Positions 10,028 to 20,582 of a stretch of 64,000 nt of DNA are shown piece by piece; position 1 is the stretch's first letter; each line of letters opens with the position of its first letter. The DNA is from Patescibacteria group bacterium (GTDB taxonomy: Bacteria; Patescibacteriota; Minisyncoccia; JACQLN01): NCBI GenBank assembly GCA_038065095.1, contig JBBTRR010000001.1, positions 113,546-177,545 of the forward strand. The letters run 5' to 3'. The translations under genes and the position numbers were made by a program. A model generated the notes under the pieces. The model was not told where the DNA came from and did not search any database. It worked only from the letters and a program-made list of their open reading frames with translations.

Positions 10028-10177
10028 ATGAGTTGAGATAAAAATAGCCCATAAATAGCTAGTAAATAAGCCAAGTTTTGAACTATAACAAGCTATTGAC
10101 TTTTATCTTTGTAATATGGTATTATTATGGTGTACTTTAATTTACCAAAAATAATCTAATCAACCAAAGGAGGAGAA

Positions 10178-10351
10178 AATGCTTGGAAGTATTAGTGGCA
10201 CGATCATAGTCGTTGGTGCAGTGGCTATATTTTTCGGAGCCTTCGATCTGTGGGTGGATAGTCCCAGTAACTGGAAAAAGATTGCCACAAAAATCGTGGG
10301 CGGTGTAGTGGTGGTCTGTATTGGCATGTTGATGAAAAAGTTCGGTTTGTA
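10178..10351 (+). CDS. Small membrane protein (57 aa)
   Basis: AGGAGG RBS lies 7 nt upstream. Product MLGSISGTIIVVGAVAIFFGAFDLW...VGGVVVVCIGMLMKKFGL. Confidence 0.45.
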
Positions 10352-10397
10352 ACAGTCTTATTTTTTTGAAGTAAACCTTTTTCCGTATCGGAGGCCT

Positions 10398-10517
10398 TAT
10401 GAAAAAGATGGCTATGCCGGTGTGGAGGTGGTGGGTCAAGGAATACTCTCAAGAAATGTTCATCGGTGCTGCTTTCTTGGCGCTGGCGATTCCGTTTATC
10501 AAATTCTTTTTTGGATA
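10398..10517 (+). CDS. Tiny membrane peptide (39 aa)
   Basis: GGAGG RBS. Product MKKMAMPVWRWWVKEYSQEMFIGAAFLALAIPFIKFFFG. Confidence 0.35.
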
Positions 10518-10526
10518 GGAGAAAAA

Positions 10527-10829
10527 ATGGCTACAAAACCTAGTATAGAAAAGCTCAGAGAATTGGCAAGCAGAAGGAACGTGGCTTACGAAATTAGCAG
10601 GTGGTATTATGAACCATGTTCTTTGTATCAAGAAGTTCAAGAAATCCAGAAAATAGGATTTAAGTCTCAGGCGGCTAGGTGGTTAGAATCTATGACCTCT
10701 GCTGGTATGCAGTTCGGTACTGCTTCAAAAGAAGAAAGATTGAAAGAAGCCCAAAGTATGGCTGATCTTGCCGGTATACCTCTTAAAGAGATTACTGACG
10801 AGATAGGTCTATCGGGCGTGCTTTTGTAG
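10527..10829 (+). CDS. Hypothetical soluble protein (100 aa)
   Basis: AGGAGA RBS. This is the internal start MATKPSIEKLRELASRR... of the 135-aa ORF-track entry. Confidence 0.45.
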   Translation: MATKPSIEKLRELASRRNVAYEISRWYYEPCSLYQEVQEIQKIGFKSQAARWLESMTSAGMQFGTASKEERLKEAQSMADLAGIPLKEITDEIGLSGVLL

Positions 10830-10878
10830 TATTTCCCTCGGACAAATCGTCCATCACTTTAATCAAAGGATAATTCTG

Positions 10879-11202
10879 ATGATAATCACGATAGGCGAAC
10901 TGGTTCGTGACATAAATGGCACAAACCTCGCATGCGTGCCTATGGGAGGGGAAAGTTTCGCATCTCTAACAAGTGAAGAGCGTCTGACGCTTTGGCGTTT
11001 CGATGGGGTAGCTCTGGAGGTTGATGCACAGGCGTTACCGCTTCATGTTTATCTGATGGGCGGTTCGATGAAACGACTGGCCATCTATCCTCGTAGTGGT
11101 TGCATCAAAATTCCTGGAACAAGGTGTATTTCACTCAGCGATGAAGAAAATGGTCACGAACTGGTAATACATCGTGCACCGAAGGATTATATTTACCCTT
11201 GA
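10879..11202 (+). CDS. Hypothetical protein, compositionally atypical (GC roughly 50% against a background near 35%)
   Basis: 107-aa ORF. The GC shift is judged by eye. It is followed by a GAAA-tetraloop terminator. Confidence 0.4.
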   Translation: MIITIGELVRDINGTNLACVPMGGESFASLTSEERLTLWRFDGVALEVDAQALPLHVYLMGGSMKRLAIYPRSGCIKIPGTRCISLSDEENGHELVIHRAPKDYIYP

Positions 11203-16575: not shown

Positions 16576-17055
16576 CTATTTTCCTAAATCCAGTTGCATT
16601 ACTAAATCGTAATTTTCAAAACCATTTTTTCTATAAAATTTAATAGCGCTTTCGTTTTGTGCCGATGGTATAACAGAAACATAGTTAACTTTATTTTCTC
16701 GGCACCAGTTTATAAAGTTATTTGTTAGTTGTGAACCTAATTTTTCGCCTTGATGTTCTGGCTTTATATAAATACTTTCTAATTCTGCGTATTTAACGTC
16801 AATTCTATATAGTGGACGTTTGAGTATGGTGCACATTATATAGCCTATAATATTTTTTTCTTCGTTTTCCACAATTTCTACAAAACTATCTTCGCCAGAG
16901 ATTCTTGCTTTAAAATATTCTTGGCCGTCGGCGCTAAAAGTCCAATCCAAATTAGCAGTAGGATCAAATTCGTGTTGAATATTAAAAAGTTCCAAATTTA
17001 GTTTGGAGACTTCTGATAAATCTTCGGGTTTGGCTTTGCGGATGGTTGTAGGCAT
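16576..17055 (-). CDS. GNAT-family N-acetyltransferase
   Basis: Motif IYIKPEHQGEKLGSQL...KFYRKNGFE is the acetyl-CoA binding motif A. Confidence 0.7.
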   Translation of the reverse strand: MPTTIRKAKPEDLSEVSKLNLELFNIQHEFDPTANLDWTFSADGQEYFKARISGEDSFVEIVENEEKNIIGYIMCTILKRPLYRIDVKYAELESIYIKPEHQGEKLGSQLTNNFINWCRENKVNYVSVIPSAQNESAIKFYRKNGFENYDLVMQLDLGK

Positions 17056-17056
17056 A

Positions 17057-17150
17057 AAGGGTCAAAAGGGGGTGAATGGGTCAAAAAAGGAAAATGGAAT
17101 TAAGGGGTTAAAAGGGGAAAGTAAGGGGTCAGGAAATAAAATGGGAGGCA
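17057..17150. repeat. ~94-bp polypurine (top strand) / polypyrimidine tract with repeated GGGTCA and GGGG units
   Basis: GGGTCAAAAGGGGGTGAATGGGTCAAAAAAGG...AAGGGGTCAGG. The top strand has only 3 C. On the minus strand this is a near G-free leader between tRNA-His and the GNAT-murD operon. Confidence 0.6.
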
Positions 17151-17215
17151 TATGGGACTCGAACCCATGACAACGGGTCCACAACCCGCCATGTTACCAC
17201 TACACCAATGCCTCC
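17144..17215 (-). tRNA. tRNA-His (anticodon GTG) with a genomically encoded G-1
   Basis: Folded by hand: G-1 pairs with C73. Acceptor GAGGCAT/ATGCCTC. D-stem GTGT/ACAT. Anticodon stem GCGGG/CCCGT with loop TTGTGGA. T-arm ATGGG-TTCGAGT-CCCAT. CCA is not encoded. Confidence 0.8.
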
Positions 17216-17301
17216 ATACAACTAATTTTCAATTATCAATTTACAATTTTCAATCAAAAACCAGCAACCCCAGTTTAGCTCTTTTGGCTGAAATTATCAA
17301 T

Positions 17302-17550
17302 TTATTCCTCCAGTTTCGATACCAAAGCTCCTTCGTGTATTTTCTGATCAACTTTAATACCAACAACATCCCCAGCTTTAGCCGAAGCTACACTTTTATG
17401 ATCAACCTGCATTTCTGTAACAGTTTGATTGAATTCTGTTTTTCCACTTTCTAACTTTATTTTATCGCCAGTTTTTAGAGAATCTGACAGTTTTATAATG
17501 GCTACACCTAGTTTGCCGTAGTAATGTGTTATTTTTCCGATAGGTTTCAT
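17302..17550 (-). CDS. Hypothetical small protein, beta-rich (possible EF-Tu domain-2-like barrel; low confidence)
   Basis: 82-aa ORF MKPIGKITHYYGKLGVAIIKLSDSLKTGDKIKLESGKTEF... Confidence 0.4.
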   Translation of the reverse strand: MKPIGKITHYYGKLGVAIIKLSDSLKTGDKIKLESGKTEFNQTVTEMQVDHKSVASAKAGDVVGIKVDQKIHEGALVSKLEE

Positions 17551-17605
17551 GTTTTAATTAAATAAGAAATTAAAAATGCTCGACCTTTGGAAATCGCAAG
17601 TGTAT

Positions 17606-17626
17606 TGGTGCCCCTGGAGGGAATCG
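17606..17626 (-). pseudogene. Orphan 3' fragment of a tRNA-Arg-like gene (T-loop 3' half + acceptor 3' strand + CCA). It forms a 19-bp direct repeat with the intact tRNA-Arg 3' end.
   Basis: Minus strand reads ...CGATTCCCTCCAGGGGCACCA. No 5' half can be found. GTGCCCCTGGAGGGAATCG at 17608-17626 is identical to 17785-17803. Confidence 0.5.
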
Positions 17627-17785
17627 GTCACAACTTTTATTTTCGCCGTCGCTCAAACAAAGTCGCGACCCCACCTCACTGTGTTGTCTGCTGACAACAC
17701 ATCGTTCCGGCTTTCGATTCCTCTCTAGAAACACTTACATTCAAATCCAAACATTCCATAAATGGAATATTCGGATTTGATTATG

Positions 17786-17857
17786 TGCCCCTGGAGGGAA
17801 TCGAACCCCCATCAAGACCTTAGAAGAGTCCTGTTCTATCCATTGAACTACAAGGGC
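17786..17857 (-). tRNA. tRNA-Arg (anticodon TCT)
   Basis: Folded by hand: acceptor GCCCTTG/CAGGGGC, D-arm GTTC-AATGGATA-GAAC, anticodon stem GGACT/GGTCT with loop CTTCTAA, T-arm GGGGG-TTCGATT-CCCTC, discriminator A. Confidence 0.8.
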
Positions 17858-17963
17858 GGACTTGGTTGTATTGACTACAATTTTTAGGGTTGGTATGCTA
17901 TTATCACTCTAAAGGTTACAGTGATAACAAGACCTAATTAATTAAGTCTATAAACATTCTACA

Positions 17964-20582
17964 ATGAATTTCGGTAATTTTACCACTAAAGCCCAAGAAG
18001 CCTTTCAAAAAGCGCATTTTTTAGCTCAAGAGAAAGGGGGAGAACAAATTAATTCTCTCCATTTGCTTTTGGCTTTATTAAGGCAAGAAGAAGGTTTGGT
18101 TTCTACAATATTAAGAAAGATAGAAGTAGATGTTTCGACCATAGAGAAGATTTTAGAACAAGAACTAAATAAACTGCCAAAAGTTATTGGTGGAGGTGTT
18201 TCCCAGCTTTTTTTGAGCCAAGACTTGGCTTTAATAATTGAACAAGCCCAAAAAGAAGCAGGCAAATTTAAAGATGAATATGTTTCCACAGAACATTTAT
18301 TATTGGCTCTACTTTTTGTGCCTTCACGTGGCAGACAAATTTTAGAAGACGGTGGTGTAAAAAGCGACCATATTTTGCGTGCTTTAAAGGAGATAAGAGG
18401 CGAGGAAAAAGTAACTTCACCTGAACCCGAACAAACTTACCAAGCTTTAGAAAAATATACGCGTAATTTAACCGATTTGGCGCGGCGCGAAAAACTTGAT
18501 CCTGTTATTGGTCGAGACGCTGAAATTAGACGTGTGATGCAGGTTTTATCGCGTAGAACTAAAAACAATCCTGTTTTAATTGGAGAGGCTGGTGTAGGTA
18601 AAACTGCAATTGTGGAAGGTTTGGCTCAAAGAATAGTTTCTGGTGATATTCCAGAAAGTTTGCGCGATCGTGAAGTTGTAGCTTTAGATATTGGTTCGCT
18701 GGTGGCTGGCACAAAATTTCGTGGGGAATTTGAAGAAAGATTAAAAGCTATTTTAAAAGAAGTTAATCGTGCCGAAGGAAAAATAATTTTATTTATAGAC
18801 GAACTTCATACTATGGTTGGCGCGGGTGGGGCAGAAGGCGCCATAGATGCTTCTAATTTGTTAAAACCACCTTTGGCACGTGGAGAACTTCATGCTATTG
18901 GCGCTACAACTTTAAAGGAATATCAAAAATATATAGAAAAAGATCCTGCTTTTGAACGCAGGTTTCAACCAATTTTGGTGGTAGAACCTTCCGAAGAAGA
19001 TGCTGTAGCAATTTTGCGTGGTATTAAAGAAAAATACGAAGTCCATCACGGTGTGCGTATAACCGATGCGGCTATTGTGGCTGCGGTAGAATTATCTCAA
19101 CGCTATATATCGGACCGATTTTTGCCAGATAAAGCTGTGGATTTAATAGACGAAGCTACTTCGGCTTTGCGTATGGAAATAGATTCTATGCCAGACGAAT
19201 TAGATATACTTTTTCGCGAACTGCGAAGGCTTGAAATCGAAAAAGAAGCTTTAAAAAGAGAAAAGGGTACAGGCGACAAACAAAAAAAGATAAAACAGGA
19301 ATTAGCTAATTTAAAAGAAAAATATCAGGTTTTAGAAGTACAGTGGTTGCGAGAAAAAGAACTTATTACCAAGATGCGACAATCTCAAAAAGAAATTGAG
19401 CGTTTAAAAGGGGAGGCTGAAATTGCTGAACGTGAGGGTAAATTAGAACGTGTAGCCGAAATTAGGTATTCGGAAATTCCAGCCCTAGAAAAAACAGTTA
19501 AAGATTCTTCTCAAAAATTTGGTGAGTTAGAAAAGACAAACAGATTATTAAAAGAAGAAGTTGGCGAAGACGATATTGCCGAAGTGGTGAGCCGTTGGAC
19601 AGGTATTCCAACCAACCGTCTTTTAGAGGAGGAATCCAGAAAACTTACTCGTATGGAAGAAGAGCTTGCCAAAAGGGTAGTTGGTCAAAGAAAGGCGGTA
19701 GAGGCTATATCTAATGCTATAAGAAGAGCTAGAACTGGTTTAAATGAAAGTTCAAAACCAATAGGCTCGTTTATTTTTTTGGGTCCCACGGGTGTAGGTA
19801 AAACAGAACTGGCTAAGGCTTTGGCAGAATTTATATTTAACGATTCTAATTCTTTAATTAGGGTGGATATGTCGGAATATATGGAACGCCACACCGTAAG
19901 TAAATTAGTGGGTTCACCTCCTGGTTATGTTGGTTATGAAGAAGGTGGACAATTAACCGAGAAAGTTCGCAGAAAGCCATATAGCGTTATTCTTTTTGAC
20001 GAAATAGAAAAAGCGCACCCAGAAGTATTTAATACCCTACTTCAAGTTTTAGATGATGGCCATTTAACGGATGCTAAGGGTAGAAAAGTTAACTTTAAAA
20101 ATACTATTATAATAATGACGTCTAATTTGGGTACAGAAATTGTTCAGGAATATCACGGGCTTGGTTTTTCTCATAACGATGATAAAGCCGAAGAAAACGA
20201 AACCAAAGAAGTTGAGGCCAAGATAATGGAAACCTTAAAAAAGCATTTTAGGCCAGAGTTTTTAAATAGGTTAGACGAGATAATAATATTTAATGCTTTA
20301 AAGAAGGATGAAATAGAAAAAATTGTTGAATTAAGGTTGGAAGAAGTTAAAAAGAGATTGGCGGATAGAGGAATTAAATTAAAAGTTTCTGTGGAGCTTA
20401 AAGATTATGTGGTTAAAAGGGGATTTGACCCTATATATGGAGCCAGGCCATTAAAGAGGTTGATACAAACTTTAATTCTTAATCCCCTAGCCCAAAAACT
20501 TTTAGAATTGAAGGATGTTTCCAAGATAGAAAAAAACTTTAAGGCAGATATAAATAACAAAGAAGAAGTTTTTATTAGATAA
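17964..20582 (+). CDS. clpB: ATP-dependent disaggregase chaperone ClpB
   Basis: 872 aa. Clp N-domain; NBD1 Walker [19 protein letters not shown]; a long coiled-coil M-domain; NBD2 [16 protein letters not shown]; sensor-2 GARPLKR. Confidence 0.95.

What the first reader, a model, noticed from the sequence alone, without database searches (positions are those of the whole stretch)
17606..17857. 19-bp direct repeat of the tRNA-Arg 3' end about 160 bp away, with an orphan tRNA 3' fragment carrying CCA: possible relic integration site
GTGCCCCTGGAGGGAATCG occurs at 17608-17626 and at 17785-17803. The second copy is the 3' end of an intact tRNA-Arg(TCT). The first is a stand-alone fragment reading ...CGATTCCCTCCAGGGGCACCA on the minus strand.

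The ~158 bp between them contains strong palindromes (GTGTTGTCTGCTGACAACAC and GTCGCGAC...GCGAC).

Established knowledge: site-specific integrases duplicate tRNA 3' ends as attL/attR.

Inference: this is the scar of an excised or decayed integrative element, or a tiny MITE-like insert. The nearby GC-atypical gene at 10879-11202 and the TA modules hint at mobile DNA traffic in this region.
Basis: partly seen in the sequence, partly recalled or inferred. Interest (0 to 1): 0.5.

Follow-up and report, generated by a model that had tools for sequence, protein, structure and literature searches.

The report
Structured RtT-like insert in tRNA-Arg
The 19-bp repeat is real and marks a 177-bp insert in the end of a tRNA-Arg gene; the insert is not a decayed integration scar but one copy of a conserved, folded 90-nt RNA-like element that sits behind tRNA genes in groundwater Patescibacteria and is built like the poorly understood rtT repeats behind E. 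coli tRNA-Tyr.

Summary
Observation confirmed. GTGCCCCTGGAGGGAATCG occurs exactly twice: at 17785-17803, the 3' end of an intact tRNA-Arg(TCT) with no encoded CCA, and at 17608-17626, an orphan that reads ...GGGGCACCA.

A 98.8%-identical relative has the empty site. Its tRNA carries CCA and runs straight into the same flank, 178 bp shorter. So this is an insertion/deletion polymorphism at the tRNA T-loop.

The insert is not junk. It holds a hairpin, a 22-nt antisense copy (T') of the tRNA 3' end, and a 90-nt two-hairpin core.

Three more copies of the core exist, each exactly 90 nt:
- one in the tRNA-Arg of a 79% relative, again with a 19-bp repeat, but of that genome's own tRNA sequence;
- two at a tRNA-Trp in a high-GC organism and its relative.

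Covariation supports the fold: 17 of 32 pairs have double changes. It fits the tRNA-sense strand better.

No integrase, reverse transcriptase or transposase was found. Rfam has no match.

The architecture (tRNA, trailer, T', hairpins, 19-nt tRNA end with CCA, about 178 bp) mirrors the E. coli tyrT rtT repeat. The Rfam RtT model does not match, so this is an analogue, not a member.

How it inserts is unresolved.

The parts
17785..17857 (-). tRNA-Arg(TCT), complete cloverleaf, no encoded CCA (ends ..GGGGCAC then ATAATC)
   Evidence: ARAGORN; Rfam RF00005 66.4 bits; sequence
17785..17803 (-). T1: proximal copy of the 19-nt direct repeat (CGATTCCCTCCAGGGGCAC). It runs from T-loop C56 through T-stem 3', acceptor 3' and the discriminator to C74.
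17741..17780 (-). x hairpin: 19-bp arms, 2-nt loop, AT-rich, immediately 3' of the tRNA. One compensatory change against the L027 copy (AAAUCC/GGAUUU versus AAACCC/GGGUUU).
   Evidence: (I1)
17713..17734 (-). T': GTGTTTCTAGAGAGGAATCGAA, an antisense copy of the tRNA 3' end (positions 54-74). It can pair with T1 or with T2. Three of the mismatches at DNA level are G-U pairs on the tRNA-sense strand.
17626..17715 (-). 90-nt conserved core. P1 is 17709-11/17673-75. P2 is 17703-05/17678-80. P3 is 17693-17700/17681-88 with an AGCA loop at 17689-92. P4 is a long hairpin, 17655-70/17626-42, with the apex GA-GC-GACG-GC-GA at 17643-54.
17606..17626 (-). T2 plus CA: the distal 19-nt repeat copy followed by CA, reading CGATTCCCTCCAGGGGCACCA. 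This is the original tRNA 3' end with encoded CCA, joined to the native flank.
   Evidence: empty-site comparison
17627..17803 (-). The 177-bp unit that is absent from the empty site (equivalently 17608-17784)
   Evidence: The clpB-to-82-aa-gene intergenic region is 413 bp here and 235 bp in L009. The alignment blocks end at 17785 and restart at 17626.
17900..17927 (-). Promoter-like site (TTATCA-16-GATAAT) about 40 nt upstream of tRNA-Arg, from which tRNA plus element could be read through. It overlaps the CIRCE-like palindrome.
   Evidence: consensus match only

Best explanation
Four copies are compared throughout. W is the window copy. S is in L027, a 79% relative, also at tRNA-Arg. H is in L018 and K in L033, both at tRNA-Trp.

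What it is (shown). The repeat delimits a 177-bp noncoding unit lodged in the T-loop and 3' end of tRNA-Arg(TCT). The order on the tRNA strand is: tRNA with T1, x hairpin, T' (antisense to the tRNA 3' end), a 90-nt two-domain core, then T2-CCA and the native flank. T2-CCA is the gene's original 3' end. T1 restores a complete but CCA-less tRNA. The unit belongs to a family not in Rfam, whose 90-nt core is conserved in length and in a covariation-supported fold at tRNA-Arg and tRNA-Trp loci of Patescibacteria-type genomes. It is present or absent among near-identical strains.

How it works (inferred).
1. It is transcribed by read-through from the tRNA promoter.
2. T' pairs with a T copy. With T2 this makes a 19-22-bp helix that ends at CCA and closes the core.
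3. That helix imitates the stacked acceptor and T-arm of a tRNA. The tRNA end-processing enzymes could therefore release the tRNA and a stable RNA of about 180 nt. This is the design of the E. coli tyrT-operon rtT RNA.
4. The unit is probably a selfish or accessory passenger of tRNA genes.
5. It spreads within populations by homologous recombination of its flanks. It is lost by slippage between T1 and T2. Occasionally it colonises new tRNA genes by an unidentified step in which T' matches the new tRNA.
For: Repeat and tRNA.

Empty sites:
- L009 is 98.8% identical over clpB..T1. Its tRNA ends ..GGGCACCA and runs straight into the homologous flank. The alignment breaks exactly at T1 and T2.
- L041 is the empty site for the other tRNA allele.

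The other three copies:
- S (L027): a homologous element with the same boundaries. Its 19-bp repeat is its own tRNA sequence, 4 differences from W, and both copies are identical within that genome.
- H (L018): tRNA-Trp with a 47-bp repeat, a T' that matches tRNA-Trp, and the identical 29-nt core segment.
- K (L033/L032): the core lies downstream of the same tRNA-Trp in a relative of H.

The core is a real structured family:
- All four cores are 90 nt with the same MFE fold.
- 90.6% of cells are paired and 17/32 pairs have changes on both sides. 0/500 shuffles reached this, and slid controls gave 30-45%.
- P3 has three different stem sequences with an invariant AGCA loop.
- A model built from W and S alone finds K at 82.2 bits (E 1e-15) and H at 56.9 bits (E 3.5e-10). 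Chance palindromes score 18 bits or less.

Strand: the RNAalifold consensus is -48.6 kcal/mol (covariation term -4.5) on the sense strand and -38.6 (-1.1) on the antisense strand. The core is 90.6% paired on the sense strand and 84.3% on the antisense strand. T'.T duplexes are more stable on the sense strand.

Conservation: W versus S, the interior is 83% identical (about 90% outside the swapped hairpin). The tRNA 5' part is 77%, the neighbouring gene 78%, the flanks 35-63%.

E. coli analogue: the 19-nt tRNA-Tyr end occurs 6 times at 178-bp spacing. The Rfam RtT consensus has the same outer T'.T helix enclosing hairpins and ending in CCACCA.

Transcription: there is a promoter-like site upstream of the tRNA and no promoter- or terminator-like site inside the unit.
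Against: - There are only four copies at two loci, and no expression or processing data.
- The Rfam RtT model does not hit any copy at E<=10. My core model hits E. coli only locally and not significantly (8.7 bits, E 0.27). The rtT link is therefore architecture, not demonstrated homology, and the function of rtT itself is poorly known.
- K lacks T2 and most of T', so the T'.T2 closing helix is not universal.
- T' in W pairs through the discriminator and C74. Only CA is left single-stranded, which is not a textbook minihelix.
- MFE predictions disagree on which T copy pairs with T'. W and S use T1; H uses T2.
- The identity of T1 and T2 within each genome, despite 4 differences between genomes, is not explained by passive passenger status alone.
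- The searches of public collections needed exact patterns, so the size of the family is unknown.
Confidence: 0.5

Rival explanations
1. Guide-directed nonautonomous mobile element. The unit, as RNA or single-stranded DNA, uses T' as an antisense guide that spans the insertion point in the tRNA T-loop. An enzyme encoded elsewhere inserts it, with one precise cut in the T-loop and a second, variable cut downstream. This gives long target duplications (19 bp in W and S, 47 bp in H). Changing T' retargets it from tRNA-Arg to tRNA-Trp.
For: - The repeat is each host's own tRNA sequence and is perfect within W and within S, although the two differ at 4 of 19 positions. A true target duplication would give exactly this.
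- The T-loop boundary is the same within 1 nt in W, S and H, while the other boundary varies.
- T' is complementary to the local tRNA, and the match runs 2-3 nt across the insertion point. It is Arg-type in W and S and Trp-type in H.
- H and K carry different core lineages at an identical tRNA-Trp. K's P4 resembles W's more than H's.
- Filled and empty pairs exist for both tRNA-Arg alleles.
- A folded T-x-T' hairpin recombining with the duplex target would give exactly the product T-x-T'-core-T. This is inference, by analogy with CTXphi and integron attC.
Against: - There is one copy per locus and no second copy in 64 kb or in 29 held loci.
- There are no terminal inverted repeats.
- No candidate enzyme lies nearby in any of the four contexts.
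- T' in S has not adapted to S's tRNA beyond the 11 nt next to the T-loop, so the W and S copies may simply be inherited.
- W-to-S divergence of the element (about 10-17%) is close to that of clpB (14%). That fits vertical descent.
- No bacterial mechanism is known that gives 19-47-bp duplications.
Confidence: 0.22
2. One reading: attL/attR scar of a tyrosine-integrase element (phage or island) that integrated in the T-loop. It later lost nearly all its interior, or it was a minimal attP-only integrant.
For: - The repeat starts in the T-loop and runs to the tRNA 3' end, the classic identity block of T-loop-type tRNA integration sites (own knowledge).
- The displaced original end carries CCA and the restored gene does not.
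- The size, about 177 bp, is attP-like.
- The tRNA-Arg locus is a rearrangement hot spot in relatives, with inversions, tRNA fragments and inserted ORFs.
Against: - Independent decay could not leave the same 90-nt fold at two different tRNAs.
- The compensatory changes and the G-U strand bias point to a single-stranded fold, not duplex arm sites.
- No integrase was found in the window or in any related locus, and no occupied site with a large element.
- There is no match in viral contigs, phages or plasmids.
- The interior is conserved, not decaying.
Confidence: 0.1
3. T-loop intervening sequence. The functional tRNA-Arg is assembled from the 5' part plus T2-CCA. T1, the x hairpin, T' and the core are an intron-like insert, held as a separate domain by T1.T' pairing and removed, or tolerated, at the RNA level.
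For: - The MFE folds of W (z = -7.6) and S (z = -8.7) pair the 5' acceptor strand with T2 and pair T1 with T'.
- Only T2 has an encoded CCA, as does the neighbouring tRNA-His.
- T2 has kept perfect complementarity to each genome's own tRNA 5' half.
Against: - A complete tRNA with T1 exists upstream and scores normally.
- H folds as an ordinary tRNA plus a separate element.
- K has no T2.
- A relative (L012) uses a CCA-less tRNA-Arg with no element, so CCA addition must be available in the clade.
- There is no group I or other intron signal. Known Patescibacteria tRNA introns are group I introns in the anticodon loop (PMC13011429).
- An intron needs no duplicated exon.
Confidence: 0.07
4. Remnant of a tandem tRNA-Arg duplication whose downstream copy lost its 5' two-thirds (an ancestral pseudogene).
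For: An orphan 3' end with CCA downstream of an intact gene is what a decayed tandem copy would leave.
Against: - The sequence between the copies is not tRNA-like. It is the conserved core, which is also found at tRNA-Trp.
- The empty site in a 98.8% relative shows that the orphan is the original end, not a second gene.
Confidence: 0.03

Closest known systems
E. coli tyrT-operon rtT repeats / RttR RNA (Rfam RF00391 RtT; Egan & Landy 1978 and Bosl & Kersten 1991, cited from my own knowledge; Bosl & Kersten is also cited in PMC3318445)
   Same: - The unit lies directly downstream of a tRNA gene on the same strand.
- The unit is 177 bp here and 178 bp in E. coli.
- It ends with an exact copy of the last 19 nt of the tRNA, including CCA.
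- An internal antisense segment pairs with that copy to close a domain of hairpins (Rfam consensus; here).
- Both share a local hairpin apex, GA-GC-N4-GC-GA.
   Different: - There is no significant covariance-model match in either direction.
- The internal topology and the order of the hairpins differ.
- This is a single unit, not a tandem array.
- The repeat starts at T-loop position 56 here and at 58 in E. coli.
- The upstream tRNA here loses its encoded CCA.
- The unit is polymorphic between strains and is found at two different tRNAs.
- The host is Patescibacteria, not Enterobacteria.
attL/attR of tyrosine-integrase elements that target the tRNA T-loop
   Same: The direct repeat runs from the T-loop to the tRNA 3' end. 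The tRNA is restored by incoming sequence and the original end is displaced. Filled and empty sites are seen among relatives.
   Different: There is no integrase and no cargo. The interior is a conserved single-strand fold with an antisense copy of the site. Repeat copies match each host's own tRNA.
Folded single-strand recombination sites (CTXphi attP(+), integron attC)
   Same: An inverted pair (T and T') can fold into a duplex mimic of the target. The order expected after integration, T-x-T'-core-T, is the one seen (inference).
   Different: No XerCD/dif or integron context, and no evidence of a single-stranded DNA stage. The G-U bias fits RNA as well.
Group I introns in Patescibacteria tRNA genes (PMC13011429)
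   Same: A noncoding structured insert within a tRNA gene of the same phylum.
   Different: Those lie in the anticodon loop, are over 200 nt long, match Rfam intron models and have no exon duplication. None of this holds here.

Membership tests
RtT RNA (Rfam RF00391) | Scores at or above the family's gathering threshold (45 bits) with the RF00391 covariance model | tested here: not met
   There is no RtT hit at E<=10 in window 16800-18200 or in L027, L018 or L033. The same scan gives 133-137 bits on the E. coli units.
RtT RNA (Rfam RF00391) | The unit lies immediately 3' of a tRNA gene on the same strand and ends in a copy of the tRNA's 3'-terminal ~19 nt with CCA | tested here: met
   for the window; for E. 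coli
RtT RNA (Rfam RF00391) | An antisense segment pairs with the tRNA-end copy to form the closing helix of the RNA | tested here: met
   Rfam consensus structure. Here: the RNAalifold outer helix, duplex energies and the H MFE fold.
RtT RNA (Rfam RF00391) | Tandem repetition of the unit, and release of a processed RNA of about 171 nt | tested here: not met
   Tandem repetition is not met: all four copies are single units. RNA release cannot be tested with these tools.
Integrase-mediated tRNA integration scar (attL/attR) | Direct repeat covering the tRNA 3' part from a loop to the 3' end, with an empty site in relatives | tested here: met
Integrase-mediated tRNA integration scar (attL/attR) | An integrase gene, or element cargo, between or next to the repeats in this or a related genome | tested here: not met
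   The interior is 158 bp with no credible ORF. There is no recombinase Pfam hit in 40 window ORFs or in the neighbours of the relatives.
MITE (nonautonomous DDE transposon) | Terminal inverted repeats, a short fixed target duplication, and multiple dispersed copies | tested here: not met
   The unit ends share no inverted repeat (sequence). The duplications are 19 and 47 bp. No other copy was found in the window or in held loci.
Bacterial tRNA group I intron | Group I catalytic core, anticodon-loop position, no exon duplication | tested here: not met
   There is no intron model hit at E<=10. The insert lies in the T-loop and has a 19-bp duplication.
New family proposed here (tRNA-end element, 90-nt core) | A 90-nt core: P1-P2-P3 with an AGCA loop, plus a long P4 with a GA-GC-N4-GC-GA apex, on the tRNA-sense strand 3' of a tRNA and preceded by an antisense segment to the tRNA 3' end | tested here: met
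   The independent model from W and S finds K and H.

The most novel reading that the evidence does not exclude
The unit is a retargetable, guide-bearing nonautonomous mobile element. Its T' segment base-pairs with the 3' part of a tRNA gene and directs insertion into the T-loop by an unknown trans-acting enzyme. This produces long, variable target duplications that rebuild the tRNA. It would be a new class of bacterial mobile element specific for tRNA genes.
Probability: 0.2. Interest if true: 0.85.

Novelty: new variant of a known kind. Interest (0 to 1): 0.55.

Why it matters
- It turns an apparent integration scar into a candidate structured RNA family that Rfam lacks. The family has clear covariation and sits on tRNA genes of Patescibacteria.
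- It supplies the first counterpart outside the enterobacteria, in architecture, of the E. coli rtT repeats. Their origin and function have stayed obscure since 1978.
- Because filled and empty sites coexist in one groundwater population, gain and loss can be studied directly.
- If T' proves to be a targeting guide, this would be a new way for small elements to colonise tRNA genes.
- Practically, such units create CCA-less tRNA genes followed by orphan 3' ends. Annotation pipelines and prophage finders will misread these as att sites.

Tried and rejected
- Known RNA families: an Rfam scan at E<=10 over the locus and over the three other copies gave only tRNAs and meaningless miRNA-type hairpin hits.
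- Group I or other introns: no signal. The literature describes only anticodon-loop introns in this phylum.
- Phage attP: a viral-contig scan with the tRNA 3' end found only a phage tRNA array (L022). Three degenerate core patterns gave nothing or one chance hit without the fold (L039).
- BLAST of the inserts against phages and plasmids: no match.
- The 20-nt palindrome alone is not diagnostic. Four of the five metagenome hits share only the palindrome. Streptomyces genomes carry a multi-copy GTGTTGTCCGCGGACAACAC repeat unrelated to tRNAs. All of these score 18 bits or less with the core model.
- Coding potential: the 54-aa ORF across the insert is not credible, because the swapped P3 hairpin would rewrite it.
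- Neighbouring genes in K, L014 and L029: no Pfam domain suggests a recombinase.
- The L014 spacer with a CCA-bearing fragment is not a family member. It reflects a separate replacement of the resident tRNA.
- Homology to RtT by covariance model: rejected in both directions.
- Literature searches for a described tRNA T-loop element found nothing relevant.

Full report
NAMES. W is the window copy. S is the copy in L027. H is the copy in L018. K is the copy in L033 (L032 carries the same sequence). T1 and T2 are the proximal and distal copies of the direct repeat. T' is the antisense copy of the tRNA 3' end.

1. OBSERVATION.
- The 19-mer GTGCCCCTGGAGGGAATCG occurs at 17608-17626 and 17785-17803 and nowhere else in the window, even with 3 mismatches. 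The chance expectation is 0.01.
- The second copy is the 3' end of tRNA-Arg(TCT), 17785-17857 on the minus strand (ARAGORN; Rfam 66.4 bits). This gene has no encoded CCA (..GGGGCAC|ATAATC).
- The first copy is an orphan reading CGATTCCCTCCAGGGGCACCA.
- The neighbouring tRNA-His does encode CCA if its G-1 is counted.

2. ANATOMY OF THE 158 BP BETWEEN THE COPIES (tRNA-sense strand, minus strand of the window). After T1 (17803-17785) come four parts.
- A 19-bp-arm hairpin at 17780-17741.
- T', a 22-nt segment at 17734-17713: GTGTTTCTAGAGAGGAATCGAA. It is the degenerate reverse complement of the tRNA from T54 to C74. The tRNA end, the hairpin and T' therefore form one long imperfect palindrome, 79% matched over 68 nt.
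- A 90-nt core at 17715-17626. It contains the GTGTTGTC-AGCA-GACAACAC hairpin and a long hairpin whose apex is GA-GC-GACG-GC-GA.
- T2-CCA at 17626-17606.
- The window has no second copy of any of this.

3. ORGANISM AND THE EMPTY SITE.
- The 82-aa gene just downstream is found on Hainich groundwater contigs and on MAGs labelled Patescibacteria.
- Near-identical strains (L002-L007) carry the intergenic region unchanged.
- L009 comes from another well. It is 98.8% identical over clpB to T1 and 98.3% in murD, but only 94.1% from T2 through the 82-aa gene and the acetyltransferase. The alignment breaks exactly at T1 and at T2.
- In L009 the tRNA reads ..CCATGGGCACCA and continues directly into the flank that follows T2 in the window. 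Its intergenic region is 235 bp, against 413 bp in the window.
- So T2-CCA is the original 3' end, the 177-bp unit is an indel polymorphism within one population, and a recombination breakpoint coincides with it.

4. THE INSERT IS A MEMBER OF A FAMILY.
- S (L027). The 82-aa protein is 79% identical. Its own tRNA-Arg(TCT) carries a homologous unit with the same boundaries. The repeat is again 19 bp but has S's tRNA sequence (CGATTCCTCGCGGGGGCAC, 4 differences from W). Both copies are identical within S, and the distal copy again carries CCA.
- W versus S identities: interior 83%, or about 90% outside one hairpin that is replaced by a different stem (ATTCCGT/GCGGAAT) with the AGCA loop retained. 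The tRNA 5' part is 77%, the 82-aa gene 78% and the flanks 35-63%.
- L041 (80%) shows the empty site for S's tRNA type, with CCA.
- H (L018) came from a metagenome scan with the 20-nt palindrome. It is a high-GC contig (clpB 55% identical to the window's). A tRNA-Trp is followed by the same layout:
  - a 47-bp direct repeat, made of the tRNA from the T-loop plus its terminator hairpin;
  - a T' complementary to tRNA-Trp, split by a small hairpin;
  - a core that shares an identical 29-nt segment with W.
- K (L033, same sequence in L032) was reached through a protein neighbour of H, not through a DNA pattern. It has the identical tRNA-Trp, followed by a terminator hairpin, a short T' (CUUUGCGGG against CCCGCAAAG) and a core with a third P3 stem sequence (GUUUUGCG/CGCAAAAC, loop AGCA). 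It has no distal repeat.

5. THE CORE IS A STRUCTURED UNIT.
- All four cores are exactly 90 nt and give the same MFE fold on their own: P1 (3 bp), a GGA/GA internal loop, P2 (3 bp), P3 (8 bp, AGCA loop), then the long P4 with a GA-GC-N4-GC-GA apex.
- On the four-sequence alignment 90.6% of cells pair, and 17 of 32 pairs show changes on both sides. 0 of 500 shuffles reach the observed values, and sliding the partners drops pairing to 30-45%.
- A model built only from W and S finds K at 82.2 bits (E 1e-15) and H at 56.9 bits (E 3.5e-10). The chance palindromes and the Streptomyces repeats score 18 bits or less.
- The fold fits the tRNA-sense strand better. RNAalifold gives -48.6 (covariation -4.5) against -38.6 (-1.1). 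There are 11 G-U cells, so 90.6% pair on the sense strand against 84.3% on the antisense strand.
- T'.T duplexes are -29.5 against -26.8 kcal/mol in W and -23.0 against -18.8 in S.
- This points to an RNA made with the tRNA, or less likely a single DNA strand. It does not point to duplex protein-binding arms.
- A promoter-like site lies upstream of the tRNA. No promoter- or terminator-like site lies inside the unit.

6. WHAT T' DOES IN THE FOLDS.
- T' can pair with T1 or with T2.
- For W and S the MFE structure pairs T1 with T' and completes the cloverleaf with T2 (z = -7.6 and -8.7).
- For H the tRNA folds normally, and T' pairs with T2 to close the core.
- With only predictions I cannot say which form exists in vivo.
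- Co-transcriptional order would favour the normal tRNA first and T'.T2 afterwards (inference).

7. CLOSEST KNOWN SYSTEM.
- The layout recalled the E. coli tyrT operon (own knowledge: Egan & Landy 1978; Bosl & Kersten 1991), so I fetched it.
- The 19-nt tRNA-Tyr 3' end occurs six times, twice in tRNAs and four times as an orphan, with 178-bp spacing.
- The Rfam RtT consensus has an outer helix GgGaaGG/CCuuCcC. That is an antisense segment pairing with the tRNA-end copy. It encloses hairpins and ends in CCACCA.
- This is the same design as here, with nearly the same unit length.
- RF00391 does not hit W, S, H or K at E<=10.
- My model matches E. coli only at the GA-GC-N4-GC-GA apex (8.7 bits, E 0.27).
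- I therefore call it an analogue in architecture, possibly a very distant relative, and not a member.
- rtT RNA is reported to be released by processing of the tyrT transcript. Its role is still unclear (bioRxiv 10.1101/2024.07.17.603846; PMC3318445).

8. WHAT IT IS NOT.
- No integrase, reverse transcriptase or transposase domain appears in 40 ORFs of the window or among the neighbours of the related copies (and the gene tables).
- There is no match in viral contigs, phages or plasmids.
- There is no intron signal. Known Patescibacteria tRNA introns are group I introns in the anticodon loop (PMC13011429).
- The unit has no terminal inverted repeats, and the duplications are 19 and 47 bp, so it is not a classical MITE.
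- A decayed scar cannot explain a conserved 90-nt fold at two different tRNAs.

9. HOW IT GOT THERE (unresolved).
- Facts that any model must meet:
  a. The T-loop boundary is constant within 1 nt, while the other boundary varies.
  b. T1 and T2 are identical within each genome but differ between W and S, in step with each tRNA's 5' half.
  c. T' matches the local tRNA type (Arg or Trp) and its match runs 2-3 nt across the insertion point.
  d. H and K carry different core lineages at an identical tRNA-Trp.
  e. Filled and empty sites exist for both tRNA-Arg alleles.
- These facts favour some form of mobility with target-derived repeats.
- Vertical descent cannot be excluded. It would require selection or conversion to keep T1 equal to T2, losses by slippage between the repeats, and spread by flanking homologous recombination.
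- W-to-S element divergence is similar to that of clpB (86% nt identity). This is compatible with either view.

10. VERDICT.
- Best explanation: an rtT-like, tRNA-riding structured element of a family not yet described.
- Only four copies support this, there are no expression data, and the insertion mechanism is unknown.

Noticed in passing
window 17901-17927: CIRCE-like inverted repeat TTATCACT-N11-AGTGATAA between the divergent clpB and tRNA-Arg. It is conserved in every relative examined (L009, L012, L014, L027, L029, L037). It is probably an HrcA-type heat-shock operator for clpB, and it overlaps the promoter-like site for the tRNA.
   Followed up: partly
L013, L014, L015, L028, L029, L037, L038 (orthologous loci): The tRNA-Arg(TCT) gene is inverted relative to the 82-aa gene in about half of the relatives. 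It exists as two alleles: type 1 as in the window, type 2 as in L027. The alleles do not follow the protein phylogeny. In L014 a type-2 tRNA (2782-2854) is flanked by a type-1 5' fragment (2872-2889) and a type-1 3' fragment with CCA (2669-2692). L029 has a ~700-bp insert with a GC-rich 139-aa ORF, flanked by repeats that include a tRNA 5' fragment. The locus is a recombination hot spot.
   Followed up: partly
L012 2884-2925: A 79% relative has a CCA-less tRNA-Arg followed by ATATCAATTTT, which resembles the start of the insert (ATAATCAAATCC). There is no element and no orphan. This may be a relic of an element that was later deleted, or it may be chance in AT-rich DNA.
   Followed up: no
window 17580-17590: The motif CCAAAGGTCGA (minus strand) lies about 30-60 nt upstream of the 82-aa EF-Tu-domain-2-like gene. 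It is conserved in all relatives whatever the tRNA orientation. It may be a promoter or regulatory element of that gene.
   Followed up: no
L033 3915-3995 (minus strand): Directly after the K core lies a 26-codon ORF for a hydrophobic peptide (MRTTAYRAFLKPAIALIIGSIAHFLI), followed by a hairpin. It looks like a type I toxin. It is not present in W, S or H.
   Followed up: no
L023, L025, L026 (Streptomyces genomes): Multi-copy intergenic palindrome GTGTTGTCCGCGGACAACAC, up to 3 or more copies per kb. Its stem is identical to the P3 stem of W and H but the loop differs. It is not near tRNAs and scores 18 bits or less with the core model.
   Followed up: partly
L022 (IMGVR_UViG_3300037069_004856): Viral contig with an array of 19 tRNA genes. 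Its tRNA-Arg(TCT) shares the last 27 nt with the window's tRNA.
   Followed up: no
window 10137-11202: Three small ORFs with GC 0.42-0.47, against 0.346 for the window, and no Pfam hit at E<=1e-4. Nothing identifies it as mobile DNA or as a toxin-antitoxin module.
   Followed up: partly
window 16592-17626 versus L009: Mosaic divergence between two strains: 98.8% and 98.3% identity on either side, but 94.1% across the 82-aa gene, tRNA-His and the acetyltransferase. This indicates a recombination import that ends at the tRNA-Arg and the element. L009 also has extra small ORFs, including a DUF5680 protein, before murD.
   Followed up: partly
L040 (E. coli MG1655 1287066-1287622): The rtT units contain an antisense copy (GGGGAAGGAT) of the tRNA-Tyr 3' end and a degenerate direct copy of the T-arm (CTTCGACCAAGGTTCGA). 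The hairpin apex GA-GC-N4-GC-GA is shared with the Patescibacteria core.
   Followed up: partly
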